Shown here: piece by piece, positions 3,161 to 31,241 of the stretch
Numbering within the stretch: the first letter of the stretch is position 1
Layout of the letters: each line of letters opens with the position of its first letter
Assembly (NCBI RefSeq): GCF_001644705.1
Contig: NZ_CP015137.1
Coordinates: 2,970,001 to 3,002,000 of the forward strand
Length of the DNA stretch: 32,000 nt
Origin: Dickeya solani IPO 2222
GTDB taxonomy: Bacteria > Pseudomonadota > Gammaproteobacteria > Enterobacterales > Enterobacteriaceae
Direction of reading: 5' to 3'
Notes under the pieces: model-generated
Databases searched by the model: none
Told to the model about the DNA's origin: nothing
Seen by the model: only the letters and a program-made list of their open reading frames with translations
Made by a program: the position numbers and the translations under genes

Positions 3161-3272
3161 TGGAAACTCCGATGATGGATAAGAGCAGCGTTTGCTCCGT
3201 TCCCGCTTATTGTTGTGGTTAGTTGAACGGGTGACTATTGCGGAATTTCTTATGCTGGTTACGTTTACTGGT

Positions 3273-3294
3273 ATCTGTTATACCGCTCACGAAT
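3273..3294. promoter_or_regulatory. candidate CRP site (TGTTA-N6-TCACG) upstream of the xyloside operon
   Basis: 8/10 match to the TGTGA-N6-TCACA core, about 120 bp upstream of the symporter ATG in an AT-rich promoter region. Confidence 0.3.
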
Positions 3295-3398
3295 TTATCG
3301 GGTAGGAGAGGGCGAACGACAGTAAAGATAGGTGTTTTTACTTTTAAATACAGTCTATTAACCTGTCAGTCAGGTGGTGGGTTGGTATAACAATATTT

Positions 3399-3441
3399 TG
3401 GCCTTTGGCCTATCTTGTGGCCTTTGGCCTGTCCTGTGGCC
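3399..3441. repeat. 19-bp tandem repeat x2 plus a partial copy (tggcctttggcctatcttg / tggcctttggcctgtcctg / tggcc)
   Basis: Read directly. The two units differ at 2 positions and each contains TGGCC twice. Confidence 0.85.
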
Positions 3442-3577
3442 GCCGGCAGCCTGCGAGCTGGCCGGGAACAGTATGCCGGTCAGGCACGCCCGGCAGCGAT
3501 CCGGTTAGCGGCTCATTATGGTGTTTGCGGCGGCGAAGCGGTGCCGCGATCGACCCGGGAAACCGGCCTGACCGTCA

Positions 3578-3817
3578 TTATTCCGGCGTCAGCCATTCGT
3601 CGGCTTCGTTAAACATCTCTTCGATAATCCGGTTAATGGTGGATTTGTCCTGTTTGCTGGCGTTGGAGTTGATGGCGTTGGCTTGCATCGGTTTTACCTT
3701 GATTTCCGCGTCCGGAAAGACCCGATTAATGCGTTTGGCGAGTTCGTTTTTAATTTGCTCCGCCGCGTTGGGTAACCCGCTCACGTTTCTTTTATCGTAA
3801 ACCAACTCTACGTACAT
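3578..3817 (-). CDS. dinI: DNA damage-inducible protein DinI (79 aa)
   Basis: Aligns end to end with E. coli DinI (FPD motif; C-terminus KQDKSTINRIIEEMFNEADEWLTPE versus KEDKQRISEILQETWESADDWFVSE). Start moved from 3832 to 3817 (MYVELVYDK aligns with MRIEVTIAK), with GGAG 9 nt upstream. A LexA box lies upstream. Confidence 0.9.
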   Translation of the reverse strand: MYVELVYDKRNVSGLPNAAEQIKNELAKRINRVFPDAEIKVKPMQANAINSNASKQDKSTINRIIEEMFNEADEWLTPE

Positions 3818-3838
3818 TAGCTGCATCTCCATGAAAAA

Positions 3839-3858
3839 TACTGGCTAAATATACAGCT
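3839..3858 (-). promoter_or_regulatory. LexA (SOS) box, CTG-N10-CAG
   Basis: The minus strand reads AGCTGTATATTTAGCCAGTA, a close match to TACTGTATATATATACAGTA. It lies 22-41 nt upstream of the dinI ATG. Confidence 0.8.
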
Positions 3859-4147
3859 TTCATTCGGGGATCCGCAATCGGTTTTTTTAGGATCAATCCC
3901 TGACGGGGTCAGTCAGCGAACGTTTTTTCCATGTAAACACTGAGTGGGTCATCGCCGTAAGGAAAGGACGGGCCGCGCAGGCAATAGACCATGACGGGTG
4001 ATGAGCTGGCATCACGGGCTCCCTATTAACCAATAACCGGCTCACTATTTCATCTAATGCCATGATAAAAAAGGGGAATAAGCAGTATGGATGGTTGCGG
4101 AAAACCGTGGTATTAAACCCTCTTCAGTCATCAACAAGGAGTGACGT

Positions 4148-4543
4148 ATGACCACATTACGCGTGGCGCGGCCGGTAACGGATCTGCAGCGAAGCGAGCG
4201 GATGTACTGTGATGGGCTAGGGTTGCAGAAATTAGGCTCGTTTGCGCAACACGACGGCTTCAGTGGTGTTATGCTGGGTCGGCAGGGGCTGGCCTGGCAC
4301 CTTGAGTTTACCGTTTGTCATACTCATCCGGTCATGCCAGCGCCGACGGAAGACGATTTACTGGTGCTGTACGTTTCCGACCATGAGCAGTGGCAAACGT
4401 CCTGCGATCGCATGGTGCAGGCCGGGTTCAGCGTGGTGGCGTCATTTAATCCTTACTGGGAGCGGCAGGGCAAAACTTTCCGTGATCCCGACGGTTACCG
4501 GGTGGTGTTGCAGCAAGGGCGCTGGCCGAATGCCGACTTATAA
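4148..4543 (+). CDS. VOC (glyoxalase/bleomycin-resistance/dioxygenase) family protein (131 aa)
   Basis: Size and pattern are typical of single-domain VOC proteins (VTDLQRSERMYCDGLGL...LEFT...FRDPDGYRVVL). AAGGAG lies 7 nt upstream. Confidence 0.8.
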   Translation: MTTLRVARPVTDLQRSERMYCDGLGLQKLGSFAQHDGFSGVMLGRQGLAWHLEFTVCHTHPVMPAPTEDDLLVLYVSDHEQWQTSCDRMVQAGFSVVASFNPYWERQGKTFRDPDGYRVVLQQGRWPNADL

Positions 4544-7274: not shown

Positions 7275-8645
7275 ATGGCGGATGCAAAAAAGGTAGTACC
7301 GGGGTTCTATACCATTGACGATGCTATCGCGCTGGATGGCAAAACAACGCGGGAACTGCAACTGACCCACCTGAACCGCATGCGGTCGCTGGACGGGCAT
7401 GCCAAGTATTTCGTACGGGCGGAAGGCAGCACCTTTATCGACGACAACGGCGACAAACATCTGGATATGATCGGCGCGGTCGGCGTGGTGACGGTCGGCA
7501 ACAACAACGAGTTTGTCTGGTCCTGCCTGCAGAAGTGTTTCGACAACCGCCTGTTCATGATGGGCGCCATCTCTTACCACAACGTCACGGCGGCGCTGGC
7601 GCACAACATGGCGCTGCTGTCGCCGCAGGGCAAACTCACCAAGATGGGCACCGCCACCGGCGGCGCGGAAGCCATCGAAGGCATGATCAAACTGGTGAAA
7701 CTCGGCACCCGCCACAAACCGGAGAAAACCCACCTGCTGGCGACGCTCGGCGCGTTTCACGGCAAGACCTCCGGCGCGGTGTCGCTGGGCGGCAAGGACA
7801 AATGGCGCTTCGGTCAGCAGCCGACGCTCGGCAACATCGACCACGTGACCTACGGTTCGGTCGACGAACTGGCGGCGGCGCTGGCTACCGGCAAGTACAA
7901 GGCGTTTGTGGTAGAGCCGATTCAGGGCGAAGGCGGCATTTTGGTGCCGCCGGCCGGTTACCTGAAAGCCGTGCGTGAACTGTGTGACCGTTACGACACG
8001 CTGTTGGTACTGGATGAAATCCAGTGCGGCGCGGCGCGTACCGGTAAATTCTGGTGCTGCGAGCACGATGACGTGGTGCCTGATTGCATCGTGTTCGCCA
8101 AGGGGTTGTCCGGCGGGCTGGTGCCGTTCGGCGGTTATCTCTGTACCGAAGCATTGTACGAAGCGGCTTACGGCACGATCGAAACCTGCTATCACCACAC
8201 CGCCACCTATCAGGAAAACACCCTCAGCGCAGCGGCGGCGCTGGGCGCGTTGCAGTTCATCGTGGAGCACGACCTGTGCGGCATGGCGGAACGCAAGGGC
8301 GCGCGCATGATGCAGCGGCTGCGCGAGGTACAGGCGCGCTACCCCGGTGTGATCCGCGAGGTGCGCGGCAAAGGGCTGATGATCGGCATGGAATTTTGCC
8401 CGATGCCGGAAGCGCTGCGCGCGACGTTCGGCGACTACTACTCCGCGCCCATCGCCGGCCTGATGGTGGAGAAATGGCGTATTCAGGTGAATTTCACCAT
8501 TAATAATCTGGCGGTGTTCCGTTTCCTGCCGCCGCTGACCATCACCGACGAGGAACTGGATTACGCGCTGGATGCCTTCGACGCCTCGGTGGCGCAGGTG
8601 GTCGAGCAGGTGAAAGCCGCTGTTCTGTCGGCGACGCCAGCGTGA
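7275..8645 (+). CDS. class-III (aspartate aminotransferase fold type I) PLP-dependent aminotransferase (456 aa)
   Basis: LDEIQCGAARTGKFW (DEVQTG-GRTG-type motif) and FAKGLSGG (PLP-lysine context). GAGG lies upstream of the ATG at 7275. The ORF-track start at 7170 has no RBS. Confidence 0.88.
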   Translation: MADAKKVVPGFYTIDDAIALDGKTTRELQLTHLNRMRSLDGHAKYFVRAEGSTFIDDNGDKHLDMIGAVGVVTVGNNNEFVWSCLQKCFDNRLFMMGAISYHNVTAALAHNMALLSPQGKLTKMGTATGGAEAIEGMIKLVKLGTRHKPEKTHLLATLGAFHGKTSGAVSLGGKDKWRFGQQPTLGNIDHVTYGSVDELAAALATGKYKAFVVEPIQGEGGILVPPAGYLKAVRELCDRYDTLLVLDEIQCGAARTGKFWCCEHDDVVPDCIVFAKGLSGGLVPFGGYLCTEALYEAAYGTIETCYHHTATYQENTLSAAAALGALQFIVEHDLCGMAERKGARMMQRLREVQARYPGVIREVRGKGLMIGMEFCPMPEALRATFGDYYSAPIAGLMVEKWRIQVNFTINNLAVFRFLPPLTITDEELDYALDAFDASVAQVVEQVKAAVLSATPA

Positions 8646-8655
8646 GGAGAGAGCG

Positions 8656-9810
8656 ATGAACTTCTCTTATCTACAACCGGTCAAGCTGTGCTTTGGCCGC
8701 GGCGAGTCGAAACGGGTGGGGCAGGAGGTCGCACAACTGGGGCGCAAGGTGCTGCTGGTGACCGGCACCACCAGCTGTCGCAAAACCGGCCTGCTGGATC
8801 GGGTGACCGATGCGCTGGCCGCCAGCGGCGTGACCTGCTTTCTGTTTGAGCGCATTGAGTCCAACCCGCTCAGCACCACGGTGGACGACGGCGCGCGGCT
8901 GGCGCGCATGCACCAGTGCGACGTGGTACTGGGGGTCGGCGGCGGCAGCGTGATGGACGCCGCCAAAGCCATCGCGTTCATGGCGAAACATACCGGGTCG
9001 GTGGTCGATTATCTGTCTGCCTCCGTCCCCGCGGGCGAGGCGCTGCCGCTGGTGCTGATGACCACCACGGCGGGCACCGGCAGTGAAGGCAACTGTGTGG
9101 CGGTGGTCACCAACCCGGCGACCCACGACAAACTGGTGTTTGTCAGCCCGGCGCTGTTCGCCCGCACCGCCATCATCGACCCGACGCTGATGGTGACCCA
9201 AACCCCGGCGATGGTGGCCTCTACCGGTTTTGACGCCATGAGCCACAACATCGAAGCGCTGGTCGGGCGCTATGTCCAGCCGATGAGCGCGATCATGAGC
9301 CGGGAAGCCATCGGCCTGCTGGCGCGCTATCTGCCGCGCGTCTGGCGCGACGCCGGCGATCTGGACGCCTGGGATCAGGTGTGCTGGGCCAACACCCTCG
9401 GCGGTATGGCGATCGGGTTGTCGGCCTGCGGGTTGCCGCATGCGATGGAGCACCCGCTGAGCGGGCTGTACAACATCACCCACGGTCAGGGGCTGGCGGC
9501 GCTCTACCCAGCACTGATGGAGTTCTCCTGGCGCGACAACGTAGCCGGGTTTGCCGCGGTGGCGCGGGCGATGAGCGACGACGTCGCGGCCTTGAGCGAA
9601 GAGGCGCAGGCCCGGCACAGCGTGGTGCTGATCCGGCAATTACTGGGGATGCTGGCGCTGAACTTCACGCTGCGCGATCTGGGCGTTGATGAGAAAGACA
9701 TCCCGTGGATGGCGGACAACTGCGTGCAGACGATGGGATTCAGCCTGCAGCAAAACCCGCGCATCGCCACGCGGGATGAGGTGGAAGCCCTGTATCGGGC
9801 GAGTCTGTAA
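8656..9810 (+). CDS. iron-containing (group III) alcohol dehydrogenase (384 aa)
   Basis: GGGSVMDAAKAIA motif and His-rich metal site (HNIEALV, HAMEHPLSG). GAGGAG RBS. Starts 10 nt after the aminotransferase stop. Confidence 0.9.
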   Translation: MNFSYLQPVKLCFGRGESKRVGQEVAQLGRKVLLVTGTTSCRKTGLLDRVTDALAASGVTCFLFERIESNPLSTTVDDGARLARMHQCDVVLGVGGGSVMDAAKAIAFMAKHTGSVVDYLSASVPAGEALPLVLMTTTAGTGSEGNCVAVVTNPATHDKLVFVSPALFARTAIIDPTLMVTQTPAMVASTGFDAMSHNIEALVGRYVQPMSAIMSREAIGLLARYLPRVWRDAGDLDAWDQVCWANTLGGMAIGLSACGLPHAMEHPLSGLYNITHGQGLAALYPALMEFSWRDNVAGFAAVARAMSDDVAALSEEAQARHSVVLIRQLLGMLALNFTLRDLGVDEKDIPWMADNCVQTMGFSLQQNPRIATRDEVEALYRASL

Positions 9811-9823
9811 GCAACCATAGGCT

Positions 9824-9855
9824 GTGAACAGGCCGCCAGACGGCGGCCTGTTCAC
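9824..9855 (+). terminator. perfect 14-bp stem-loop between the ADH and permease genes (gtgaacaggccgcc-agac-ggcggcctgttcac)
   Basis: Read directly. Followed by CCGTCTTC, which is a weak U-tract, so it may act as a partial terminator or an mRNA-stabilising hairpin. Confidence 0.45.
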
Positions 9856-9891
9856 CCGTCTTCAACCCGGTGCGCGATCGCGAGGGCCAAA

Positions 9892-11313
9892 ATGAAAGAG
9901 AATCAACTGAAAAAGAACAGTCTGGGGCTGTGGTCGTTAGTGTTTTTCGTGGTCGCGGCCGCGTCGCCGTTGACCGGGGTGATCGGCGGGCTGCCGGTGG
10001 CGATGTCGGCGGGCAACGGCGCAGGGATTCCCGCCATGTATGTGCTGGCCGGGGCGATTCTGCTGGTGTTCTCGTTTGGTTATATCGCCATGAGCCGTTA
10101 CGTGACCAACGCCGGCGCGTTTTACAGCTATATTGCGCTGGGGCTGGGGCAACGCACCGGCGTGAGCGCGCTGACGGTGGCGCTGCTGGCCTATTTCGCC
10201 ATTCAGATCGCGGTGGTGGCGCTGTTCGGTTTTTTCAGCCAGATGTACGTGCAGGATCATCTCGGCGTTAATTTGCCCTGGTGGATTTACAGCGGCGCGA
10301 TGTTGCTGGTGATCTGCTATCTGGGGATCGAAAGCGTGGAGATCGGCGGCAAGGTGTTGGGCATTCTGATGCTGCTGGAGGTGGGCATCGTGCTGTTGAC
10401 CGATATCGCGATCCTGTGGTCGCACGGACCGCAGCCGCTGACCTTCGCCTCTTTTACGCCGTCGGTGGTCCAGCAGGGCAACCTCGGCATCGCGCTGGTG
10501 TTTACCATTGCCGCCTTCATCGGTTTCGAATCCACCGCCATCTACGGTGAAGAGTGCCGGGAACCGGCTAAAACCATCCCCCGCGCCACCCTGATGGCGG
10601 TGGTGCTGATCACGCTGTTCTTTGCGCTGACCAGCTGGGCGATGGTGCAGGCGTACGGGCTGGAACAGGTGCGGGAGCAGGCGCTCAACAATCCGGGCCG
10701 GTTCGTGTTTGACGTCGCCAGCCGCCTGCTGGGGCCGTGGTCGGAACAGGTAATGTCGCTGCTGCTGATCACCAGCCTGTTCGCCGCCGCGCAGGCGTTC
10801 CACAACAACATTTCCCGCTACCTGTTCAGCATCAGCCGCGACGGGGTCCTGTGGTCGAAAATGGCGCAGGTGCGGAGCGGCAAGGGGACGCCTTACATCG
10901 CCAGTCTGGTGCAGACGCTGATGATGCTGGCGTTATTACTGGTGCTGACGGCCGGCGGCGCGGACCCGATGATGCATATTTTCGCCTGGGGTTCCGCGGT
11001 GGCGACGATGGCGATCCTGCTGTTGCAGGGCGGGGTATCGCTGGCGGTGGTGATGTTCTTCCGTCGCGCCTCCCATTATCCGGCGTCGGCCTGGAGCCGC
11101 CTGTGGGCGCCGTTGTGCTCGGCGGTATTGATGGGCGTGGCGTTGCTGATGGTGAGCGACAACATGGATGTGCTGAGCGGTTCTTCGTCACAGCTGGTGT
11201 TCTTTATTCCGTGGGCGGTGGTAGGGATCGCGCTGGCGGGTTACCTGTTCGCCTGCTGGACCCAACAGTCGGGGCGCGCTTTCACGCTGGAGAACATGGA
11301 CTCGCGGGGATAA
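9892..11313 (+). CDS. APC-superfamily amino acid/polyamine permease (473 aa)
   Basis: About 12 predicted TM segments with an APC-like N-terminus (LGLWSLVFFVVAAASPLTGVIGG) and the motif FIGFESTAIYGEE. Confidence 0.85.
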   Translation: MKENQLKKNSLGLWSLVFFVVAAASPLTGVIGGLPVAMSAGNGAGIPAMYVLAGAILLVFSFGYIAMSRYVTNAGAFYSYIALGLGQRTGVSALTVALLAYFAIQIAVVALFGFFSQMYVQDHLGVNLPWWIYSGAMLLVICYLGIESVEIGGKVLGILMLLEVGIVLLTDIAILWSHGPQPLTFASFTPSVVQQGNLGIALVFTIAAFIGFESTAIYGEECREPAKTIPRATLMAVVLITLFFALTSWAMVQAYGLEQVREQALNNPGRFVFDVASRLLGPWSEQVMSLLLITSLFAAAQAFHNNISRYLFSISRDGVLWSKMAQVRSGKGTPYIASLVQTLMMLALLLVLTAGGADPMMHIFAWGSAVATMAILLLQGGVSLAVVMFFRRASHYPASAWSRLWAPLCSAVLMGVALLMVSDNMDVLSGSSSQLVFFIPWAVVGIALAGYLFACWTQQSGRAFTLENMDSRG

Positions 11314-19251: not shown

Positions 19252-19435
19252 GGCCGATGACCGACAAACCTTTTGGCGGCGGTGTCCTGCAATGATTCGC
19301 GCCGCCGGCGTAGATTCACCATGCCGCCGTCAAGGCGGCGCAAGACGCATATAGCAGCCAATGCACAGGCCCGGCAACGCTGAGAACGGCGTTGTCGGGC
19401 TCGTCCGAAGGCTGGGGTATCCCACCTGTTTTTCG

Positions 19436-19897
19436 TCACTGAACTGGAATATGCATGTCGATATCCCAGTAGCCGTCGCTGTAGCCGTCATTGAGATAGA
19501 CTTCGAAACAGGCGCGCGCCGGGTCGATGGTGTTACCATCGCCGAGTAACGCGGCAAAAAACGCCTGCCACGATAGGCCAAAATCATCGTTGGATACGCG
19601 CGCACGGGCAATCGCGTACTGACCTGCGGCGATCTCCGTCGTTATCGCCCCTTCGCCGTCGGCGGGCAGGTGAAAATCAGCGGGTACGCTTACCACGGTA
19701 TCCGCAGCCAGTTTTTCAGGCGGCGTCTCTTGTGGGTTGCCGTAATAAACCGCGATCCACTCCAGCGGCTGCACCGCGTGCTCATCCACCCATTTCATTA
19801 GTTGTTCAAATCCTTGCGGCACCGTCTGTTCCCATGGCCCCACCAGATGGAACCCAGCCGCATGGCGTTTATCCACATGCTGAACGTTGTAATCCAT
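19436..19897 (-). CDS. sbmC: DNA gyrase inhibitor SbmC/GyrI (153 aa)
   Basis: Collinear similarity to E. coli SbmC ([29 protein letters not shown]...DGYWDI.M). AAGGA RBS. Confidence 0.9.
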
Positions 19898-19919
19898 ATC
19901 TGATCCTTACCAATATGAT

Positions 19920-19939
19920 GACTGTGTATTTATACACCT
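19920..19939 (-). promoter_or_regulatory. near-consensus LexA box upstream of sbmC (plus strand CTG-N10-CAC)
   Basis: gaCTGtgtatttataCACct has one mismatch in the CAG half and a TA-rich spacer. It lies 23-42 nt upstream of the sbmC ATG and overlaps a TATAAA -10-like element on the minus strand. Confidence 0.45.
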
Positions 19940-20083
19940 TAATATACACCTCAATGTCGCGTGGACACGATGATCGTATTCCGTATGCGAGCGAACTCGC
20001 ATTCTTGTCAGAAGAAGGCGCTGATGTCCTAAACAGGGAAGGCATTGCGGTAAAAACCGGCGGTGTATTTTGCGTCGCGGCTG

Positions 20084-20115
20084 AGGGGGAGGCGATAGCA
20101 TCCCCCTTATTTTTT
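20084..20115 (+). terminator. plus-strand intrinsic terminator (aggggga-ggcgatagca-tccccct followed by TATTTTTT) with no annotated plus-strand gene upstream
   Basis: 7-bp stem and 10-nt loop with a T-run only on the plus strand. An A-run precedes the hairpin on the minus strand, so weak bidirectional function for the islet operon ending at 20139 is possible. Confidence 0.6.
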
Positions 20116-20138
20116 CACAGCCATTCAGCCGCTATGGA

Positions 20139-20810
20139 TTAACGATCGTCGACAATAAAATCCATCGCGATGTGAAAATAGCCATTCATCATTTCAGGAA
20201 CTAATTCAGCCACCGCGCTATCAACGTCCTGACCATAAACCTGTATAGCCCGATCGGTTAATGTCTGTGTGTATACACCGTTTTTAACCTCCGTATGTAA
20301 ATCCCTTCGTGTTTGCAAAAAATCATTCGAGAAGTTAAATCTGGATATAGAGAATTTATCATTTTTTATGATGATAAAATCGATAGGGTTCATGAGGCGG
20401 TCTTTTTTTAGCGTAATTTTGGGGACGTGGGTAGAAAACGCTACGTGATTGTTCTCCGTTACCTCGGCCCATGTTGCATTACACGTATTATTGACTGAGG
20501 GCGTTTTTCCTTGCGCTTTGAATGCATCAGAAAGGCATAGTCCTACTTTTGCGCCGGTCAGCGGCTGCATAGTGTCTTTTTCAAAAAATCGCAAAACGAA
20601 TTTTACAGGGATACGGCCTTTCGAATCTGAAAAACTACACTGACCTCTTTTAAACAGAAATTTATCCAACCTGCCGATAATTTTTTGTTCGTCATTGATG
20701 AGTGCCGTATTTATTATGATCGGTTTTTTCGTCAGGGCGCTGTAAGTTCGGTGTGTGATGCCGTAAAGCCCTAACGCTACCCCGGATATGATGAACATTC
20801 TCCTGTTCAT
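20139..20810 (-). CDS. hypothetical exported protein with a Tat-type (twin-arginine) signal peptide (223 aa)
   Basis: The N-terminus [25 protein letters not shown] has an RR-x-F-I motif, a Gly-rich h-region and a basic c-region. The ATG overlaps the ferredoxin stop (ATGA at 20807-20810), with GAGGAGGA upstream. AT-rich codon usage. No recognisable catalytic motif. Confidence 0.75.
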
Positions 20811-21100
20811 GAGGTCAAATCCTCCTCGGCATGAGACATGATAAACATATCGGATTGTGGATAGGTGACACAGGGGAGTAGATATTTTCCCTGTTGATCT
20901 TCATCGAGGAAGGATTGATCAGAGTCATCATATTTTCCAGTTAACGCTCTGCAGGCACATGAAGAACATGCACCGGCCCGGCAACTGTAGGGTAGTTCTA
21001 AGCCTTCTTCCTCGGCGGCATCTAGTATATATTGATCATCGCTGCATTTTATGGTCTTTGTTTTTCCACAGCTCATGATGTTTATATGATAAATTGGCAT
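20807..21100 (-). CDS. plant-type (chloroplast/cyanobacterial-type) [2Fe-2S] ferredoxin (97 aa)
   Basis: [26 protein letters not shown]...DQSFLDEDQ...LLPCVTYP...HAEEDLT. The ligand pattern C40-x4-C45-x2-C48...C77 is complete. AAGGAGG lies 10 nt upstream, and the ATG overlaps the upstream stop (TAATG). Confidence 0.9.
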
Positions 21101-21351
21101 TATGCGTTCTCCTCCTTTTGAACGTAAACGGTAAATCCTTTGGGTTTTAAATCAGGATGATCAATGGAGATTTCATTTAAAACGTTCATGCACAGGGTAT
21201 AAAGTAGCTCGCCTGCGACACGTTTGCATTGGTTATATTCCTCTTCCGGCAGCTGATTTCCCAGATCGGTCAGTTCTTTTTCAATTAACGTGATGAGTGC
21301 CGATGACTTATTAATGACTTTCCTGGCGACGTCTTTGTCTGAAATGAACAT
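21100..21351 (-). CDS. hypothetical small cytoplasmic protein (83 aa), first gene of the translationally coupled triad
   Basis: Start set at MFISDKD (21351), with GGAG 8 nt upstream. The ORF-track start at 21450 would overlap the upstream gene by 68 nt and has no RBS. No signal peptide and no recognisable domain. Confidence 0.65.
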
Positions 21352-21382
21352 GGTTATTACTCCATAATTTTTTAAGTAGGAA

Positions 21383-21742
21383 TTAAAAATCACACATGGG
21401 GACCATTCCCATACACTCAGCCATACAGCTGTGAAAGGAGCCGCCATCAAACGAGCCAGTTGGTAATGTATATAAGCATTCTTGTATGCATCGGTCTTTC
21501 TTATCTCCCATGCTTGAATTCAGCATGTCGCTGGTTGAATTTGGGATTATGTTATTTTTTTTAATAACGCATACTGCGCTTACTTTGTAAAAATTGGCTG
21601 ATTTTTTTATTTTCTCACGCTCATTTTGGTGTGTCAATTTTGCATTGATATCTCCATCGGCGACACTTGTATTTTGATAAAACAAGCTCATGGTTAATAG
21701 AGTGGAAGTAAATAATACTCTTTTTACAGATAGATTGATCAT
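21383..21742 (-). CDS. hypothetical secreted cysteine-rich mini-protein with a twin CX3C motif (119 aa precursor)
   Basis: Sec-type signal (KR, then VLFTSTLLTMSLF, then SVA/D). The mature ~91 aa carry 6 Cys, including C85-x3-C89, then 16 residues, then C106-x3-C110. AAGGA lies 7 nt upstream. Confidence 0.65.
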   Translation of the reverse strand: MINLSVKRVLFTSTLLTMSLFYQNTSVADGDINAKLTHQNEREKIKKSANFYKVSAVCVIKKNNIIPNSTSDMLNSSMGDKKDRCIQECLYTLPTGSFDGGSFHSCMAECMGMVPMCDF

Positions 21743-21928
21743 CTGTTATTCCTTTAAAGATGTCCTCAGAAGTATGGTTTTTGGGGGTGTTAAATTAAAT
21801 CTATTTTTGTGTGATGTTATTTTTTATTCTGGAAATTAATTGTCGATATTCCTCCATTTTTATGGATATAATGAAAGTGAATGGTTTATGGGCAACTGAA
21901 TGCACCAAATGACTTTAATGCTTTTCTG

Positions 21929-22678
21929 TTATTTCTTCATTAACTCCTGTAACATTTTTTCAGGATTATTCAGGAACGAACGCGTGATTTGGTAATGATC
22001 GGTGTCTTTATAATTTACCTGGGATATGTTATCGCCATCAAATTGATAAATTAACGCATCCGGGTAACCCAAAAGAATCGGGGAATGGGTGGCGATAATA
22101 AACTGCGAATCATCCAGAATAAGATCATGCATTCTGGCGAGCATCGCCAACTGTCTGGCCGGCGACAGCGCGGCTTCCGGTTCGTCGAGCAGATAGAGCC
22201 CTTTACCACTAAAACGGTTCATCATTAATGAGAGAAAAGACTCGCCGTGCGACTGCTCATGTAATGAGTGACCGCCATACGAATTAATCACCGGCGGTCC
22301 GAAGGACGGTTCGGCATCAAGGTGTTCGATTTCGGAGGCCAGGTTAAAAAAGCTCTCGGCACGAAAAAAAAATCCATTACGGGGACGTGGTACGCCTTTG
22401 GCGATTCTCAGGTAATTGGATAGCTCTGAATGCGACGCCCGCGTACTGAAAGTAAAGTTCCGGGTGCCGCCTTCGGGGTTAAATCCCATCGAGACGGCAA
22501 TCGCTTCCAGCAGCGTTGACTTTCCGGTGCCGTTTTCGCCAATAAAGAATGTGACGTTGGGGTGGGGAACAATAAAATCAAACGAACGAATTGCCGGAAT
22601 GGAAAAAGGGTAATGATCGAATGACGCTACTTTATCGCGGTTGAGAGAGATACGGCTGATGTATTGGTTTGAAATCAT
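21929..22678 (-). CDS. stand-alone ABC/SMC-fold AAA ATPase (COG3910-like predicted ATPase, 249 aa)
   Basis: Walker A GENGTGKST, signature-like SHGESF, Walker B LYLLDEPEAALSP and H-loop IIATHSP. No transmembrane or nuclease domain. Confidence 0.85.
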   Translation of the reverse strand: MISNQYISRISLNRDKVASFDHYPFSIPAIRSFDFIVPHPNVTFFIGENGTGKSTLLEAIAVSMGFNPEGGTRNFTFSTRASHSELSNYLRIAKGVPRPRNGFFFRAESFFNLASEIEHLDAEPSFGPPVINSYGGHSLHEQSHGESFLSLMMNRFSGKGLYLLDEPEAALSPARQLAMLARMHDLILDDSQFIIATHSPILLGYPDALIYQFDGDNISQVNYKDTDHYQITRSFLNNPEKMLQELMKK

Positions 22679-22861
22679 TCTGCGTCATTTCCTGCCATGG
22701 ACAGCCCAAAAACACTCACTACCACACCGGGCTAATCATTCCAATAATTTTATTCCCGGCCACGTTATTCCCGATCTCGTGGTTGCCAGTCGCTTACTGA
22801 TGCAATATCCCAGAGATTCACCCGGTTGCGTGAAATTTAGCGAAAATCAGTAACCCTACTG

Positions 22862-22890
22862 ATAGTAATGGTTATCATTATCAAGATCAA
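22862..22890 (-). promoter_or_regulatory. candidate Fur box (22864-22882) overlapping a sigma70-like promoter (TTGATC-17 nt-TACTAT)
   Basis: The minus strand GATAATGATAACCATTACT matches GATAATGATAATCATTATC at 16/19 positions and spans the spacer and -10 of a promoter pointing at the ATPase gene. Confidence 0.5.
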
Positions 22891-23164
22891 CGGCGTTTTT
22901 AGCTGCTGCGACCGCCACGCGGTTCAGCGCCTGATTGAACATCGGTGGTGTCGGCGCTCTTGCTTTTCTGCAATAGAGACAGTGATTGAAATATTTATTT
23001 CATTTTTATTCACCGCGAGGGACGGCGGGACGGTGGTGTCCGCATGCCCTCTGGTCGTTTTATCTGTACGTCAGCTGCAAGACACGACGTCACTCTTCTT
23101 TACTGATTCTATGCCTTGATTACGTTTTTTTTCGTCCTGCAACGCACTGGCAACCCGGCCGCGG

Positions 23165-23186
23165 TTTCGTGATTGTGCTAACACTA
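23165..23186. promoter_or_regulatory. candidate CRP site (CGTGA-N6-TAACA) upstream of iolG
   Basis: 8/10 match to the TGTGA-N6-TCACA core, about 170 bp upstream of the iolG ATG. Confidence 0.25.
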
Positions 23187-23348
23187 TTTTGCTCATATGT
23201 CACCAAAATGTTATCTGGCGCGCAAAAACATAATTTCCAGTTTTACTGAAATTGAAATAAACGTTTTATTGTCTTTACTCTAACAAGCAGAACAGACCCT
23301 GACCCCTACAACTAACCAGTGATACCCCGTGGTATCGAGGGAGTAGCC

Positions 23349-24335
23349 ATGTTTAACATTGCTTTACTGGGCGCTGGCCGCATCGGCCAGGTTCATGCCG
23401 TCAACATCGCCGAACATCGGGAAACCTGTCTTTATTCGGTGGTGGACCCTAACCCCGTCAACGCCCGAGCGCTGTCCGATAAATATCAGGCCCGTCTGCA
23501 AACCCTCGATGAGGCGATGGCCGATCCGGCGGTACACGCGGTACTGATCGCCTCAGCCACCGATACCCACGCCGACCTGATTGAACTGGCTGCCCGCCAC
23601 GGCAAAGCCATCTTCTGCGAAAAACCGGTACACCTGGATATCGCCCGGGTGCGTGACTGCCTGAAGGTGGTGGAACAGCAACAGGTGCCGTTGTTCGTCG
23701 GCTTTAACCGCCGCTACGACCCGCAGTTTCGCCGGGTGAAAACGCTGGCGGGCGAAGGATGCATCGGCAAGCCCGAGTCGCTGATGATTATCTCCCGCGA
23801 CCCGTCGCCGCCGCCGGCGGAGTACGTGCGCGTGTCCGGCGGCATGTTCCGCGACATGACCATCCACGATTTCGACATGGTGCGTTTCATCATGGGCGAA
23901 GAGCCGGTGTCGGTATTCGCGCAGGGCAGTAATCTGGTGGACCCGGCCATCGGCGCGGCTGGCGATATCGATACCGCTTTTGTGGTGTTCAAATTCGCGT
24001 CCGGCGCGATGGCCACCATCGTTAACAGTCGCCGCTCCGGCTACGGCTACGACCAGCGGCTGGAATTACACGGCGAGCGTGGCGTGCTGAGCGTGGGCAA
24101 CATCCGTGAAAATCAGGTGGAACACTGGGGCGACGCGGGGTGCCTCGCGGCCAAACCGGAACACTTTTTCCTACAGCGTTACCGCGATGCCTACGCGGCG
24201 GAATGGCGTCATTTCGTCGAGGTGCTGCACGGGCGTACCCAGCCCGAGTGCAGCGGCGTGGACGGCGAGCGGGCGCTGTATCTGGCCGACAAAGCGCTGG
24301 AGTCGCTGGCGACGGGGCGTGCGGTTTCGCTCTGA
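23349..24335 (+). CDS. iolG: myo-inositol 2-dehydrogenase (IolG/IdhA type, 328 aa)
   Basis: Rossmann motif LLGAGRIGQVHA. Blocks ATDTHADLIE..A..GKAIFCEKP, GFNRRYDP, SRDPSPPP, GGMFRDMTIHDFDM.RF..GEEPVSV and SRR..YGYDQR match rhizobial IdhA from memory. GAGGGAG RBS. The ORF-track start at 23319 was trimmed. Confidence 0.88.
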   Translation: MFNIALLGAGRIGQVHAVNIAEHRETCLYSVVDPNPVNARALSDKYQARLQTLDEAMADPAVHAVLIASATDTHADLIELAARHGKAIFCEKPVHLDIARVRDCLKVVEQQQVPLFVGFNRRYDPQFRRVKTLAGEGCIGKPESLMIISRDPSPPPAEYVRVSGGMFRDMTIHDFDMVRFIMGEEPVSVFAQGSNLVDPAIGAAGDIDTAFVVFKFASGAMATIVNSRRSGYGYDQRLELHGERGVLSVGNIRENQVEHWGDAGCLAAKPEHFFLQRYRDAYAAEWRHFVEVLHGRTQPECSGVDGERALYLADKALESLATGRAVSL

Positions 24336-29201: not shown

Positions 29202-29255
29202 CGGTCGTGCCGACGTGTTGTCGATTTCCTTTTTTGACTTGCAGGAATGGACGTT

Positions 29256-31241
29256 ATGAGTACGCAAAAGCAGTTTGACGTGATTTGCATGGGGCGGGTG
29301 GCGGTGGACCTGTACGGTCAACAGATCGGGTCGCGCCTGGAAGACATGGGCAGCTTCGCCAAATACCTGGGCGGTTCTTCCGGCAACGTGGCCTACGGCA
29401 CCGCCCGGCAGGGACTGCGCTCCTCCATGCTGGCGCGGGTGGGCGACGAGCACATGGGGCGCTTTCTGCGTGAAGAGTTGCAGCAGGTCGGTTGCGACAC
29501 CCGTCACCTGATTACCGATCCGACGCGGCTGACCGCGCTGGTGCTGCTCGGCATCAAGGATCGGGAAACCTTCCCGCTGATCTTCTACCGCGACAACTGC
29601 GCCGACATGGCGATCGCGCCGGAAGACGTCAGCGAGGATTACATCGCCTCGTCGCGCTGTCTGGCGATCACCGGCACCCATCTGTCACACCCTAATACCC
29701 GCGACGCGGTGCTGACCGCGCTGCGCTACGCCCGCCGGCACGGCGTGAAAACGGTACTGGATATCGACTACCGGCCGGTGCTGTGGGGGCTGACCTCGCC
29801 GGGCGACGGCGAAACCCGTTTCATCGAGTCCGCGGCGGTGACGGCGCAACTGCAACAGGTGGTGAACCTGTTCGATCTGATCGTCGGCACCGAAGAAGAA
29901 TTTCATATCGCCGGCGGCAGCACCGACACCCTACAGGCGCTGCGTCAGGTGCGGGCGCATACCGCGGCGGAACTGGTGTGCAAGCGCGGCCCGCTGGGTT
30001 GTTCGGTGTTCACCGGCGACATTCCGGCGTCGCTGGATGAGGGCATTACCGTCAAAGGCGTGCGCGTCGAGGTGCTCAACGTGCTGGGGGCGGGCGATGC
30101 CTTCATGTCCGGCCTGCTGCGCGGTTATTTGAGCGGCGAGGGTTGGGAAAAAGCCTGTGCCTACGCCAACGCCTGCGGCGCGCTGGTGGTGTCTCGCCAC
30201 GGCTGTGCGCCGGCGATGCCGAGCCGCATCGAACTGGATAACTATCTGGCGCGCGCCCATGCGGTGCCGCGTCCGGATCTGGACCCGGAGCTGAACCATT
30301 TACATCGCGTCACCACCCGCCGTCAGCGCTGGGAAGAGCTGTGCGTGATTGCCTTTGATCACCGCATTCAACTGGAGGAAATGGCGTTGGCCTGCGGCGC
30401 TGAACGCAGCCGGATCCCGGCGCTCAAGCAGTTGATCCTTAAGGCCAGCCAGCAGGCGGCGCAGCAGGCCGGGCTGCTGGGTGATGCCGGGTCGCCCGGA
30501 AAAGCCGGATTAGCGGCCGGCAGAGCTGGATTAGCGTCCGGCAGAGCCGGATTAACGCCCGGCAAAGCCGGATTATTGTGCGACGGCACTTTCGGGCAGG
30601 ACGCGCTTAACGCCATTACCGGGCAGGGTTGGTGGATCGGCCGTCCGATCGAATTGCCTGGCTCGCGCCCGCTGGCGCTGGAGCACGGCAACATCGGTTC
30701 GCAACTGGTGAGCTGGCCGCTGGAGCACATCGTGAAGTGTCTGGTGTTCTTCCATCCGGAAGATGACAGCCCGTTGCGGCTGGCGCAGGAACGGCAGGTG
30801 ACCGAGGTCTATCGCGCCTGTTGTCAGTCCGGCCATGAGCTGCTGCTGGAGGTGATCCTGCCCGCCGATATGCCGCGCAGCGACGATCTGTATCTGCGGG
30901 CGATCCAGCGTTTCTACAATCTTGGCATTCGGCCCGACTGGTGGAAACTGCCGCCGCTGTCCGCCGACGGCTGGCAACGGCTGGAACACCTGCTGGCCGA
31001 GCGCGATCCCTATTGCCGCGGTGTGGTGATCCTCGGGCTGGATGCGCCGATCGAGACATTACGTCAGGGGTTCAACGCCGCCGCCGGTCAATCGGTGGTG
31101 AAAGGGTTTGCGGTGGGGCGCACGCTGTTTGCGCAGCCGGCACAGCAGTGGCTGCGCGGCGACATCAACGACGAACAGTTGATCGCCGACGTCAAAAATA
31201 ACTACCTGCAGCTGATCGCCTTGTGGCGTCAACGCGGCTAA
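29256..31241 (+). CDS. iolC: 5-dehydro-2-deoxygluconokinase (PfkB) fused to a DUF2090/aldolase-like C-terminal domain (661 aa)
   Basis: PfkB motifs (GGSSGNVA, NVLGAGDAFMSGLL) in the N-terminal half and a C-terminal ~260 aa extension as in long-form proteobacterial IolC. Start set at 29256, with AGGA 9 nt upstream. An in-frame repeat lies in the linker. Confidence 0.88.
   Translation: MSTQKQFDVICMGRVAVDLYGQQIGSRLEDMGSFAKYLGGSSGNVAYGTARQGLRSSMLARVGDEHMGRFLREELQQVGCDTRHLITDPTRLTALVLLGIKDRETFPLIFYRDNCADMAIAPEDVSEDYIASSRCLAITGTHLSHPNTRDAVLTALRYARRHGVKTVLDIDYRPVLWGLTSPGDGETRFIESAAVTAQLQQVVNLFDLIVGTEEEFHIAGGSTDTLQALRQVRAHTAAELVCKRGPLGCSVFTGDIPASLDEGITVKGVRVEVLNVLGAGDAFMSGLLRGYLSGEGWEKACAYANACGALVVSRHGCAPAMPSRIELDNYLARAHAVPRPDLDPELNHLHRVTTRRQRWEELCVIAFDHRIQLEEMALACGAERSRIPALKQLILKASQQAAQQAGLLGDAGSPGKAGLAAGRAGLASGRAGLTPGKAGLLCDGTFGQDALNAITGQGWWIGRPIELPGSRPLALEHGNIGSQLVSWPLEHIVKCLVFFHPEDDSPLRLAQERQVTEVYRACCQSGHELLLEVILPADMPRSDDLYLRAIQRFYNLGIRPDWWKLPPLSADGWQRLEHLLAERDPYCRGVVILGLDAPIETLRQGFNAAAGQSVVKGFAVGRTLFAQPAQQWLRGDINDEQLIADVKNNYLQLIALWRQRG
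30496..30579 (+). repeat. 4 x 21-bp in-frame tandem repeat inside iolC (PGKAGLA AGRAGLA SGRAGLT PGKAGLL)
   Basis: Units at 30496-30516, 30517-30537, 30538-30558 and 30559-30579 differ by a few substitutions. Confidence 0.9.

What the first reader, a model, noticed from the sequence alone, without database searches (positions are those of the whole stretch)
20116..23318. AT-rich ~3.2 kb islet splits the myo-inositol locus and carries five ORFs unrelated to inositol catabolism
Seen: base composition drops sharply across this segment. Hand counts of 60-nt lines give 19/60 G+C at 20281 and 14/60 at 21781, against 39/60 at 17401 inside iolD. The segment lies between iolR-iolA-iolD-sbmC and iolG-ABC-iolC-iolE. 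All on the minus strand, it encodes an ABC/SMC-type ATPase, a secreted twin-CX3C mini-protein, an 83-aa protein, a plant-type 2Fe-2S ferredoxin and a Tat-signal protein. I found no integrase, transposase, tRNA or terminal inverted repeats. Inference: this is horizontally acquired cargo. The gene combination matches no system I can name, so it is the best candidate in this window for an undescribed function, apparently linked to iron/ferredoxin and directed at the cell envelope.
Basis: partly seen in the sequence, partly recalled or inferred. Interest (0 to 1): 0.8.

Follow-up and report, generated by a model that had tools for sequence, protein, structure and literature searches.

The report
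FerE-type ferredoxin cassette in Dickeya
The AT-rich stretch is real and foreign, but it holds two unrelated things: a widespread stand-alone ATPase gene, and a four-gene cassette built around the plant-type ferredoxin FerE already known from the sister genus Pectobacterium. The cassette's conserved exported partner proteins have not been described, and they suggest the ferredoxin works in the cell envelope.

Summary
The window is Dickeya solani. The GC drop is real: 42.4% in 20116-23318 against 61.4% elsewhere, about 7 sd. All five ORFs exist as described.

The islet is composite. The 249-aa ATPase sits at this spot in every Dickeya examined, with or without the other genes. It is absent from every other copy of the cassette. 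It belongs to a widespread stand-alone family.

The other four genes form a conserved cassette:
- a Sec-signal twin-CX3C protein;
- an 83-aa protein;
- a plant-type 2Fe-2S ferredoxin;
- a Tat-signal 223-aa protein.

The cassette recurs at two other chromosomal sites in Pectobacterium. One of these is exactly genomic island GI_55 of strain SCC3193, whose ferredoxin is the published FerE. It also recurs, reordered, in Pseudomonas lijiangensis. The ferredoxin-Tat pair also occurs in Endozoicomonas.

The Tat protein models as an intradiol-dioxygenase-like beta-sandwich that has lost the iron ligands.

My preferred mechanism is inferred, not shown: the Tat protein carries folded holo-ferredoxin into the periplasm. 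A conserved Fur-box-like site lies upstream of the ATPase gene.

Verdict: a new member of a known but mechanistically uncharacterised island. Interest is moderate.

The parts
20139..20810 (-). 223-aa protein with a twin-arginine (Tat) signal. The mature part models as an intradiol-dioxygenase-like beta-sandwich without conserved iron ligands. Its ATG overlaps the ferredoxin stop codon (ATGA).
   Evidence: ORF. The RRxF motif plus a hydrophobic stretch is kept in 10 of 10 homologues. The AF2 model has pLDDT 74.6. Foldseek top hits are intradiol dioxygenases, E 2.5e-7, TM about 0.5. There is no Pfam hit. The family is very rare: 8 representatives among 1.84 billion.
20807..21100 (-). 97-aa plant-type [2Fe-2S] ferredoxin without a signal peptide. 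It is the homologue of Pectobacterium FerE.
   Evidence: TIGR02008 8.6e-36 and Pfam Fer2 4e-21. PDB best hits are cyanobacterial and plant ferredoxins, and pectocin M1/M2 N-domains also hit. All four Cys ligands are kept. Identity is 56% to SCC3193 FerE and 68% to the P. carotovorum-type copy.
21100..21351 (-). 83-aa acidic protein without a signal peptide and with no known domain. Its TAA stop overlaps the ferredoxin ATG (TAATG).
   Evidence: ORF and sequence. Homologues occur only in Dickeya and Pectobacterium and Pseudomonas lijiangensis. No Pfam or PADLOC hit.
21383..21742 (-). 119-aa exported mini-protein. It has a Sec-type signal-like N-terminus and a C-terminal motif C-x3-C-x(12-16)-C-x3-C-x(5-6)-C.
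   Evidence: ORF. Homologous to the Pectobacterium 104/102-aa and Pseudomonas 93-aa proteins in the same cassette.
21392..21416 (-). Weak terminator-like hairpin at the 3' end of the 119-aa gene. It may separate that gene from the translationally coupled 83-aa/ferredoxin/Tat unit.
   Evidence: Consensus scan only, and the number of sites found is not above chance.
21929..22678 (-). 249-aa stand-alone ABC/SMC-type P-loop ATPase. It is a neighbour inside the AT-rich block but not part of the conserved cassette.
   Evidence: Pfam AAA_15/AAA_21. At least 90% identical copies occur in D. dadantii 3937, D. chrysanthemi, D. aquatica and others. It is present at the locus without the cassette and absent from the Pectobacterium, Pseudomonas and Endozoicomonas cassettes. 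Homologues at 58-73% identity occur in distant phyla. Matches to defence ATPases cover only the P-loop and signature ends.
22864..22882 (-). Fur-box-like site GATAATGATAACCATTACT, a 16/19 match to the consensus. It lies 186-204 nt upstream of the ATPase start codon.
   Evidence: It is the only match in the window with 3 or fewer mismatches, and 0 of 100 shuffles gave one. 0 of 200 shuffles reached it. It is conserved in four Dickeya species inside a poorly conserved spacer.
20085..20115 (+). GC-rich hairpin GGGGGAGGCGATAGCATCCCCC followed by a T-run on the + strand. It lies between the Tat-protein stop codon and the sbmC-like gene, just beyond the end of homology with D. dadantii 3937 (which runs up to 20077).
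   Evidence: Read directly from the sequence. Its function was not tested.
19436..19897 (-). GyrI-like (SbmC-like) 153-aa gene. It is a separate variable cargo of the same hot spot: present in D. solani and D. dadantii, absent in D. aquatica and D. chrysanthemi.
   Evidence: Pfam GyrI-like 2.8e-24. Locus comparison.

Best explanation
Identity (high confidence). The AT-rich block in the Dickeya solani iol locus is a hot spot holding independent cargo. Its core, window 20139-21742, is the Dickeya copy of the FerE cassette of Pectobacterium. The cassette encodes a Sec-exported twin-CX3C mini-protein, an 83-aa cytoplasmic protein, the plant-type [2Fe-2S] ferredoxin FerE, and a Tat-signal protein with a degenerate intradiol-dioxygenase fold. 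The last three genes are translationally coupled. The 249-aa ATPase is an older, unrelated neighbour.

Mechanism (inferred, moderate to low confidence). The ferredoxin has no signal peptide and must receive its cluster in the cytoplasm. I propose that it binds the basic, cofactor-less beta-sandwich protein and is carried with it through the Tat translocase ('hitch-hiking'). This would place a plant-type ferredoxin in the periplasm. There it would act together with the disulfide-stabilised mini-protein, which in some relatives is serviced by a dedicated DsbA-like oxidoreductase. The 83-aa protein would be a cytoplasmic assembly or proof-reading helper.

Output (most speculative). The output would be an envelope redox or iron-handling function, used under iron limitation or oxidative stress in hosts that contain plant-type ferredoxin.
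For: Shown:
- Exact protein matches place the window in D. solani.
- The ferredoxin-Tat gene pair is adjacent in 6 of the 7 family lineages examined. These are Dickeya, two divergent Pectobacterium types, Endozoicomonas euniceicola, one metagenomic contig and Pseudomonas lijiangensis.
- All four genes recur in Pectobacterium and P. lijiangensis in different gene orders and chromosomal sites.
- The SCC3193 stretch from the IS3 fragment to yshB is 3239 bp with 8 genes, and its ferredoxin is the 4th gene. This matches published GI_55 (W5S_4688-4695, FerE = W5S_4691).
- Start and stop codons overlap for 83-aa/ferredoxin (TAATG) and for ferredoxin/Tat protein (ATGA). The same kind of overlap is seen in contig L020.
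- The RRxF motif is kept in all homologues, and the N-terminus aligns to the CueO Tat signal.
- The family has no invariant Cys, His or Tyr. The exported protein itself therefore shows no cofactor site that would explain Tat use.
- The mature Tat protein is basic (pI 7.8-9.5) wherever it is paired with the acidic ferredoxin (net -9 to -12). The one homologue without a ferredoxin neighbour is acidic (pI 4.5).
- A homologous DsbA-like gene accompanies the cassette in SCC3193 and P. lijiangensis. The Pseudomonas copy has a signal peptide and a CVYC motif.
- A Fur-box-like site is conserved upstream of the co-directional ATPase gene.

From the literature:
- FerE enhances oxidative-stress tolerance and in planta fitness (PMC3486870, citing Sjoblom 2008).
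- Tat substrates can be exported as heterodimers with the signal peptide on only one partner (PMC10924467, abstract).
Against: - No interaction or localisation was tested.
- Many cofactor-less proteins use Tat. The Tat signal could simply be inherited from a secreted iron-dioxygenase ancestor.
- The charge-complementarity contrast rests on a single unpaired homologue.
- The published ferE phenotype is compatible with a purely cytoplasmic ferredoxin, or with polar effects on downstream genes.
- The Fur-like box lies about 950 nt upstream of the cassette, in front of a gene that is not part of it. Co-transcription is unknown. Fur-like matches upstream of other cassettes are only borderline (14/19, shuffle fraction 0.03-0.06).
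- The cassette decays often in Dickeya. The ferredoxin is frameshifted in D. aquatica, the cassette is deleted in strain 3937, and it is reduced to one gene in D. chrysanthemi. Whatever it does is dispensable.
- The fold model is of moderate confidence (pLDDT 74.6, built from 10 sequences).
Confidence: 0.4

Rival explanations
1. FerE is a cytoplasmic electron carrier. It buffers oxidative stress or feeds a cytoplasmic reductase. The exported neighbours work separately, or need the ferredoxin only for a maturation step before export. No ferredoxin reaches the periplasm.
For: The ferredoxin has no signal peptide and is a canonical plant-type ferredoxin with all four ligands. The published ferE phenotype is oxidative-stress tolerance (PMC3486870). 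Tat signals are common on secreted intradiol-dioxygenase-like proteins, so Tat use may be ancestral (fold match).
Against: It does not explain why the ferredoxin is tied to a Tat-exported protein across gamma-proteobacterial orders, with overlapping start and stop codons. It also does not explain why that protein has no conserved redox or metal ligands. Intradiol dioxygenases need no electron donor (established enzymology, my own knowledge).
Confidence: 0.25
2. This is a competition or ferredoxin-piracy accessory. The self-made plant-like ferredoxin exploits or blocks the FusA/FusB/FusC plant-ferredoxin import route. It might act as a decoy that protects against ferredoxin-fused pectocins, or as a targeting subunit for an exported toxin. 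The 83-aa protein would be an immunity-like factor.
For: - Pectocins M1, M2 and P use this same ferredoxin type as their receptor-binding domain, and pectocin M1 arose by duplication of the stand-alone ferredoxin region (PMC3302902).
- Pectocin M1 and M2 are PDB hits of the window ferredoxin.
- Dickeya carries fus homologues (PMC5095587).
- In Endozoicomonas and contig L020 the ferredoxin-Tat pair is followed directly by an RHS/YD-repeat protein.
- D. chrysanthemi keeps only the 83-aa gene at the locus and has a second copy elsewhere, as orphan immunity genes do.
Against: - No cassette protein matches a toxin, immunity or defence family.
- The 83-aa protein lacks any export signal, although the putative action would be in the envelope.
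- The RHS neighbours may be independent island cargo.
- Whether fus genes co-occur with the cassette was not tested.
Confidence: 0.15
3. One reading: all five genes, including the ATPase, form one undescribed system.
For: The genes are co-directional and adjacent in several Dickeya species. All have low GC. A Fur-like box precedes the ATPase gene, and no strong terminator was found between it and the cassette.
Against: The ATPase is retained at 90-93% identity where the cassette is deleted or reduced. It is absent from every cassette outside Dickeya. It is a member of a family conserved at 58-73% identity in unrelated phyla. Its GC3 (0.52) differs from that of the cassette (0.38-0.46).
Confidence: 0.05
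4. The cassette is a decaying remnant with no present function in D. solani.
For: Independent pseudogenisation or loss is seen in D. aquatica, D. dadantii 3937, D. chrysanthemi and D. ananatis (a truncated 145-aa Tat protein).
Against: In D. solani all four ORFs are intact and identical across many genomes (24 contigs read, 33 index blocks). The ligand cysteines, the RR motif and the CX3C motifs are all kept. The coupled start and stop codons are preserved.
Confidence: 0.1

Closest known systems
FerE, the 'plant ferredoxin-like protein' of Pectobacterium, and its island GI_55 in P. parmentieri (formerly P. wasabiae) SCC3193 (Sjoblom et al. 2008 as cited in PMC3486870; stand-alone 'plant-like ferredoxin' of Pcc PC1 in PMC3302902)
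   Same: The ferredoxin is homologous (56% identity to SCC3193 FerE, 68% to the P. carotovorum type). It has the same neighbours: a twin-CX3C protein, an 83-aa protein and a Tat approximately 225-aa protein. Both are AT-rich, small (about 3.2 kb) and located in variable chromosomal sites.
   Different: The Dickeya copy sits in the iol locus, not at hemN-glnG or beside the pel genes. It lacks the DsbA-like gene and IS fragments. It is preceded by an ATPase gene with a Fur-like box. The literature I could read treats only the ferredoxin gene and calls it unique to Pectobacterium and plant-derived. The partner genes, and their presence in Dickeya, Pseudomonas and Endozoicomonas, are not described there.
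Ferredoxin-containing bacteriocins pectocin M1, M2 and P, and the Fus plant-ferredoxin uptake system
   Same: They use the same plant-type ferredoxin fold (PDB 8jc1 and 4n58 are hits). According to PMC3302902, pectocin M1 derives from a duplication of this stand-alone ferredoxin region.
   Different: Here the ferredoxin is a separate 97-aa protein with no fused cytotoxic domain and no Cmi-like immunity gene. No fus genes lie in the window.
Tat 'hitch-hiker' complexes, for example hydrogenase small/large subunits, DmsAB and the periplasmic PaoABC with its [2Fe-2S] subunit (my own knowledge; principle stated in PMC10924467)
   Same: One partner carries the twin-arginine signal and a signal-less cofactor protein is encoded next to it. 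Small dedicated cytoplasmic helper proteins are typical of such systems.
   Different: In the known cases the signal-bearing subunit is itself a redox enzyme subunit. Here it is a cofactor-less beta-sandwich, and the cargo would be a free plant-type ferredoxin. Nothing has been shown experimentally.
Intradiol ring-cleavage dioxygenases (protocatechuate 3,4- and catechol 1,2-dioxygenases; secreted forms such as Tetranychus 5vg2 and Streptomyces SACTE_2871)
   Same: They are the best structural matches (E 2.5e-7 to 1e-5, TM 0.4-0.56). A short sequence echo is also seen: 'P[LI]xGAKV' followed by a hydrophobic strand.
   Different: There is no Pfam Dioxygenase_C hit and no conserved Tyr or His that could form the 2-Tyr/2-His Fe(III) site. 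It is probably not an enzyme of this type.
Fur-repressed [2Fe-2S] proteins of iron mobilisation (Bfd, FhuF; my own knowledge)
   Same: A small 2Fe-2S protein lies in a locus that carries a strong Fur-box-like site. A paralogue of the 83-aa gene lies beside an NRPS and a FecCD-type iron transporter in D. chrysanthemi.
   Different: The ferredoxin class is different. The Fur-like site precedes the ATPase gene, not the ferredoxin. No regulation data exist.

Membership tests
Plant-type [2Fe-2S] ferredoxin (TIGR02008 / PF00111) | Profile score above the curated cut-off over the full length | tested here: met
   TIGR02008 scores 121.6 bits against a cut-off of 81.15, covering residues 4-96. PF00111 scores 75.2 against 21.
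Plant-type [2Fe-2S] ferredoxin (TIGR02008 / PF00111) | Four cluster-ligating cysteines, C-x4-C-x2-C ... C | tested here: met
   [10 protein letters not shown] ... PCVTYP aligns with the ligands of cyanobacterial ferredoxins 3p63 and 2pvg.
Plant-type [2Fe-2S] ferredoxin (TIGR02008 / PF00111) | Actually binds a [2Fe-2S] cluster and transfers electrons | not testable with these tools
   Needs purified protein (UV-vis or EPR).
FerE island of Pectobacterium (GI_55 of SCC3193) | Ferredoxin homologous to FerE | tested here: met
   56% identity to the SCC3193 ferredoxin and 68% to the P. carotovorum-type copy. tblastn E 2e-42.
FerE island of Pectobacterium (GI_55 of SCC3193) | Same flanking genes (twin-CX3C protein, 83-aa protein, Tat approximately 225-aa protein) | tested here: met
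   All three are found by tblastn or BLASTP in L005/L008/L010/L011. In SCC3193 locus L027 they are identified by gene order and size in the gene calls and by the shared C-terminal Cys motif. L027 spans 3239 bp with 8 genes, as published.
FerE island of Pectobacterium (GI_55 of SCC3193) | Quorum-sensing/RsmA control and an oxidative-stress / in planta fitness phenotype | not testable with these tools
   The phenotype is known only from Pectobacterium (PMC3486870 citing Sjoblom 2008). The original paper is not held.
Tat (twin-arginine) substrates | N-terminal (S/T)-R-R-x-F-L-K-like motif followed by a hydrophobic h-region | tested here: met
   The sequence is [20 protein letters not shown] is invariant and F is nearly invariant in 10 homologues. 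The profile aligns to the CueO signal. The Pfam TAT_signal match is only weak (E 0.12).
Tat (twin-arginine) substrates | Export depends on TatABC | not testable with these tools
   Needs a tat mutant and fractionation.
Intradiol ring-cleavage dioxygenases (PF00775) | Beta-sandwich fold of the catalytic domain | tested here: met
   All top 50 Foldseek hits are in this family, with best E 2.5e-7 and TM about 0.5. The model pLDDT is 74.6.
Intradiol ring-cleavage dioxygenases (PF00775) | Sequence profile match | tested here: not met
   No Pfam hit even at E of 10 or less for any of 10 members. There is only a 34-residue echo to 5vg2 at E 0.64.
Intradiol ring-cleavage dioxygenases (PF00775) | Conserved 2 Tyr + 2 His ligands of Fe(III) | tested here: not met
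   The invariant residues of the family are R3 R4 G86 F97 P130 K135 D144 R157 D186. No Tyr or His is invariant or nearly invariant. A residue-by-residue structural superposition was not available.
Ferredoxin-containing bacteriocins (pectocins) | Ferredoxin domain fused to a colicin M-like or pesticin-like killing domain | tested here: not met
   The ferredoxin ORF ends after 97 residues. No toxin domain is found in any cassette protein.
Anti-phage defence ATPase systems (Septu PtuA, PARIS AriA, MADS MAD3), considered for the 249-aa ATPase | Full-length match and the partner effector gene alongside | tested here: not met
   The matches cover only the Walker A and signature/Walker B ends of profiles that are 304-545 positions long. 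No partner nuclease is adjacent.
Discrete mobile element (IS, transposon or integrative island) | Integrase or transposase, tRNA target, terminal repeats | tested here: not met
   None are present in the window. IS3, IS21 and Tn3 fragments do flank the cassette in other genomes.

The most novel reading that the evidence does not exclude
The FerE cassette is a dedicated machine that exports a folded, cluster-loaded plant-type ferredoxin across the inner membrane. The ferredoxin would hitch-hike on a catalytically dead dioxygenase-fold Tat carrier. This would create a periplasmic (or, after type II secretion, extracellular) ferredoxin that works with a disulfide-locked mini-protein in iron handling, redox defence or ferredoxin-receptor (Fus) interplay. 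On this reading the ferredoxin was not taken from the host plant. It spread among bacteria of photosynthetic hosts as part of this module.
Probability: 0.3. Interest if true: 0.7.

Novelty: new member of a known kind. Interest (0 to 1): 0.5.

Why it matters
FerE has been listed as a Pectobacterium fitness factor since 2008, with no mechanism. It has been described as a lone gene captured from plants and unique to that genus.

This analysis changes that picture in three ways:
- The ferredoxin is always tied to a Tat-exported partner and two small proteins.
- The module is present in Dickeya, including the epidemic potato pathogen D. solani.
- The module reaches Pseudomonas, and the ferredoxin-Tat pair reaches a coral symbiont.

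These results turn 'what is FerE for?' into a testable question. Is a plant-type ferredoxin exported? Does it interact with the Fus ferredoxin-piracy and pectocin routes that these pathogens use for iron and for competition? The results also weaken the host-to-pathogen gene-transfer story.

The practical lesson for the scan is that a compositional islet can be a hot spot with several independent cargoes.

Tried and rejected
- Word-indexed homology searches for the 223-aa, 119-aa and 83-aa proteins found only Pectobacteriaceae. The exhaustive profile search was needed to reach the distant relatives. One of its hits, P0028, is a 1644-aa repeat protein that I regard as spurious.
- The first structure model, built from 4 sequences, was too poor to use (pLDDT 58).
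- A genome-collection scan with the wide alignment failed for lack of conserved stretches. I therefore could not retrieve an uninterrupted iolD-iolG junction from another genus, nor survey fus co-occurrence.
- The 83-aa family gave only a marginal match to a hemerythrin-like region of PDB 3cax (E 0.005). This was not backed by Pfam scans of ten members, so I rejected it.
- The cassette gave no Rfam match and no PADLOC match. Promoter and terminator counts were not above chance. No terminal repeats were found. The 223-aa protein has no plasmid-borne copy.
- Fur-like matches upstream of cassettes outside Dickeya were borderline only.
- The context of the ATPase homologue in Cupriavidus could not be read because the record has no annotation.
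- The original FerE paper is not held.

Full report
**Observation**

The composition claim holds. GC is 0.424 over 20116-23318, against 0.614 for the rest of the window. No same-size window elsewhere falls below 0.547 (mean 0.611, sd 0.027). Third-position GC is 0.38-0.46 for the four small genes and 0.52 for the ATPase gene, against 0.75-0.81 for the iol genes.

The five minus-strand ORFs are present, and public annotation calls the same genes. The window has no tRNA, no convincing terminal repeats, no Rfam match in 19300-23500, and no transposase or integrase domain in the five proteins.

**Organism and locus history**

Exact protein matches place the window in Dickeya solani. Comparison with other Dickeya shows that the islet is neither a single unit nor a recent insertion.

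- D. aquatica has iolG, then the ATPase, the 119-aa-like gene, the 82-aa gene, the ferredoxin, the Tat protein, then iolD, at the same place. It has no sbmC-like gene. Its ferredoxin carries a frameshift before the fourth cysteine in three assemblies.
- D. chrysanthemi keeps the ATPase and only the 82-aa gene.
- D. dadantii 3937 keeps the ATPase at 93% protein identity. It has a deletion that joins window position 21624, inside the 119-aa gene, to 20285, inside the Tat-protein gene. A PAS-chemoreceptor gene follows before sbmC.

The space between iolG and iolD is therefore a hot spot with several independent cargoes. The cassette was there early in the genus and has decayed repeatedly.

**The ATPase is a bystander**

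It is conserved at 90% identity or more across the genus, whether or not the cassette is present. It is absent from every cassette outside Dickeya. It belongs to a stand-alone family of about 245 aa found at 58-73% identity on Caballeronia, Cupriavidus, Clostridium and Mycobacterium replicons. Its similarity to the defence ATPases PtuA, AriA and MAD3 is limited to the P-loop and signature ends, and no partner gene is adjacent.

**The cassette**

The ferredoxin is a bona fide plant-type [2Fe-2S] ferredoxin. TIGR02008 scores 121.6 bits against a cut-off of 81.15. The best PDB hits are cyanobacterial and plant ferredoxins, and the N-domains of pectocins M1 and M2 also hit. All four ligand cysteines are present.

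The three partners have no Pfam, NCBIfam or PADLOC family. They are nevertheless conserved together, as the table shows.

| Lineage | Gene order and setting |
|---|---|
| P. carotovorum, P. versatile, P. parvum | 83-aa, 104-aa, ferredoxin, 224-aa; beside three pectate-lyase genes, a RelB/ParE pair and a Tn3 fragment |
| P. parmentieri SCC3193 | IS3 fragments, 102-aa, 83-aa, ferredoxin, 227-aa, a DsbA-like gene; between hemN and glnG |
| Pseudomonas lijiangensis | 224-aa, 93-aa, 78-aa, ferredoxin, DsbA-like gene |
| Endozoicomonas euniceicola | ferredoxin directly followed by the Tat protein, then an RHS/YD-repeat protein, amid IS21 and Tn3 elements |
| One metagenomic contig (L020) | ferredoxin directly followed by the Tat protein, then an RHS/YD-repeat protein |
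| A second metagenomic contig (L019) | Tat-protein homologue alone, no ferredoxin nearby |

The SCC3193 stretch spans 3239 bp and 8 genes, with the ferredoxin fourth. That is exactly the published island GI_55 (W5S_4688-4695), whose W5S_4691 is FerE.

The exhaustive profile search found only eight representatives of the Tat-protein family among 1.84 billion proteins, and one of those is probably spurious. The family is very rare and almost always tied to this ferredoxin.

**Anatomy of the partners**

*The 223-aa protein.* It begins MNRRMFI followed by a hydrophobic stretch. RR is invariant and F nearly so in ten homologues. The profile aligns with the CueO Tat signal. With ten sequences AlphaFold2 gives pLDDT 74.6. 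All top Foldseek matches are intradiol ring-cleavage dioxygenases (E down to 2.5e-7, TM about 0.5), and a short sequence echo to the same top hit is seen. However, there is no Pfam match, and no tyrosine, histidine or cysteine is conserved in the family. The 2-Tyr/2-His iron site is therefore not kept. I read this protein as a degenerate, probably non-catalytic, beta-sandwich.

*The 119-aa protein.* It has a signal-like N-terminus. It shares the C-terminal motif C-x3-C-x(12-16)-C-x3-C-x(5-6)-C with its Pectobacterium and Pseudomonas counterparts.

*The 83-aa protein.* It is acidic, has no signal, and keeps an MxISDK start and a [HY]P[DE]LKPxxF motif in the Dickeya, P. carotovorum-type and Pseudomonas copies.

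*Gene coupling.* The 83-aa, ferredoxin and Tat genes have overlapping stop and start codons, TAATG and ATGA.

*DsbA-like proteins.* Those of SCC3193 and P. lijiangensis are homologous (31% identity, E 6e-24). The Pseudomonas one has a signal peptide and a CVYC active site.

**Mechanism**

What is shown is a tight, rare, cross-order linkage. It joins a signal-less Fe-S protein, a Tat-signal protein with no evident cofactor site, a Sec-exported disulfide-type mini-protein, and sometimes a periplasmic thiol oxidase.

The simplest model that uses all parts is hitch-hiking. The ferredoxin would acquire its cluster in the cytoplasm, bind the Tat-signal protein and be co-exported. This mode is established for other Tat substrates (PMC10924467).

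Charge gives modest support. The mature Tat protein is basic (pI 7.8-9.5) in all six lineages where it is paired with the acidic ferredoxin (net -9 to -12). The one unpaired homologue is acidic (pI 4.5).

This remains inference. No localisation or interaction was tested, many cofactor-less proteins use Tat, and the signal may simply be inherited from a secreted dioxygenase ancestor. I put it at about 0.4.

The rivals are:
- a purely cytoplasmic ferredoxin, which fits the published oxidative-stress phenotype;
- a role in the Fus ferredoxin-import and pectocin arena, supported by the pectocin M1 origin story in PMC3302902, fus homologues in Dickeya in PMC5095587, the RHS neighbours, and the orphan 83-aa genes;
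- a decaying remnant with no present function.

**Iron link**

A 16/19 match to the Fur consensus lies at 22864-22882, upstream of the ATPase gene. It is the only such match in the window, and none occurred in the shuffles. It is conserved in four Dickeya species within an otherwise divergent spacer. It belongs formally to the ATPase gene. Whether transcription continues into the cassette is unknown.

Fur-like matches upstream of other cassettes are borderline. A paralogue of the 83-aa gene lies between an NRPS gene and a FecCD-type transporter in D. chrysanthemi.

**Origin**

The literature calls FerE plant-derived and unique to Pectobacterium. Three findings here do not favour direct capture from a host plant:
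- The gene is widespread in Dickeya.
- The module ferredoxins of Dickeya, Pectobacterium, Pseudomonas and contig L020 share derived features absent from the two cyanobacterial ferredoxins (PDB 3p63, 2pvg) used as references: an extra cysteine in CxxC[AV]C and a G-x-Y-D segment.
- The pair occurs in a coral symbiont.

A proper phylogeny was not run.

**Verdict**

It is wrong on two points: the segment is not one five-gene system, and it is not nameless.

The locus is a new member, in Dickeya, of the FerE island known from Pectobacterium. What appears undescribed in the literature I could search is the conserved multi-gene module around FerE and its exported partners. Interest is moderate at 0.5. 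The export hypothesis would raise it if confirmed.

Noticed in passing
window 22864-22882 (- strand): A strong Fur-box-like site (16/19 match) lies upstream of the 249-aa ATPase gene. It is conserved in D. solani, D. dadantii 3937, D. aquatica and D. chrysanthemi within a divergent spacer. This suggests iron regulation of this widespread ATPase of unknown function.
   Followed up: partly
window 22750-22779: A tandem 15-nt direct repeat, TTATTCCCGGCCACG / TTATTCCCGATCTCG, lies between the Fur-like box and the ATPase start. On the minus strand it reads CGGGAATAA twice. It is also present in D. dadantii 3937 but not in D. aquatica, and may be a regulator binding site.
   Followed up: no
window 20085-20115 (+ strand): A GC-rich hairpin followed by a T-run is oriented for a plus-strand transcript, in the spacer between the Tat-protein stop codon and the sbmC-like gene. 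No plus-strand gene is evident upstream. It lies just beyond the homology boundary with D. dadantii 3937 (20077).
   Followed up: no
L012 (D. dadantii 3937) 8055-8096 and 8629-9927: Strain 3937 carries a remnant of the cassette, with window 21624 joined to 20285. A PAS-domain methyl-accepting chemotaxis gene occupies the place of the rest. The spot is a recombination hot spot inside the iol cluster.
   Followed up: yes
L022/L023/L024 (D. aquatica) ferredoxin gene, L023 6712-6998: The ferredoxin carries an identical frameshift before the fourth ligand cysteine in three assemblies. The neighbouring 82-aa and Tat-protein genes stay intact.
   Followed up: yes
L015 6734-9010 (Endozoicomonas) and L020 1694-3559 (metagenomic contig): The ferredoxin-Tat pair is followed directly by a signal-peptide RHS/YD-repeat protein. 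The L020 protein ends in a Cys-rich tail (CAEDC...C...CMRIC) reminiscent of the twin-CX3C mini-protein. The similarity is weak and unverified.
   Followed up: partly
L009 6001-6252 (D. chrysanthemi): A second, lone copy of the 83-aa gene (55% identical) sits just after a large NRPS gene and next to FecCD-type iron-siderophore transporter genes.
   Followed up: no
L027 6761-7309 (P. parmentieri SCC3193) and L018 2479-3135 (P. lijiangensis): A homologous DsbA-like thiol oxidoreductase gene accompanies the cassette in two distant lineages and is missing in D. solani. The SCC3193 call lacks a signal peptide and may be 5'-truncated.
   Followed up: partly
window 2945-4257, ORF 3578-3832 (- strand): A second low-GC stretch occurs in the window. 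It contains an 84-aa ORF that looks like a DinI-family protein, judged from my memory of the E. coli DinI sequence and not tested with tools.
   Followed up: no
iolC (PfkB+DUF2090) follows at 29247-31241. No iolE was seen in the gene calls of the matching public contigs.
   Followed up: partly
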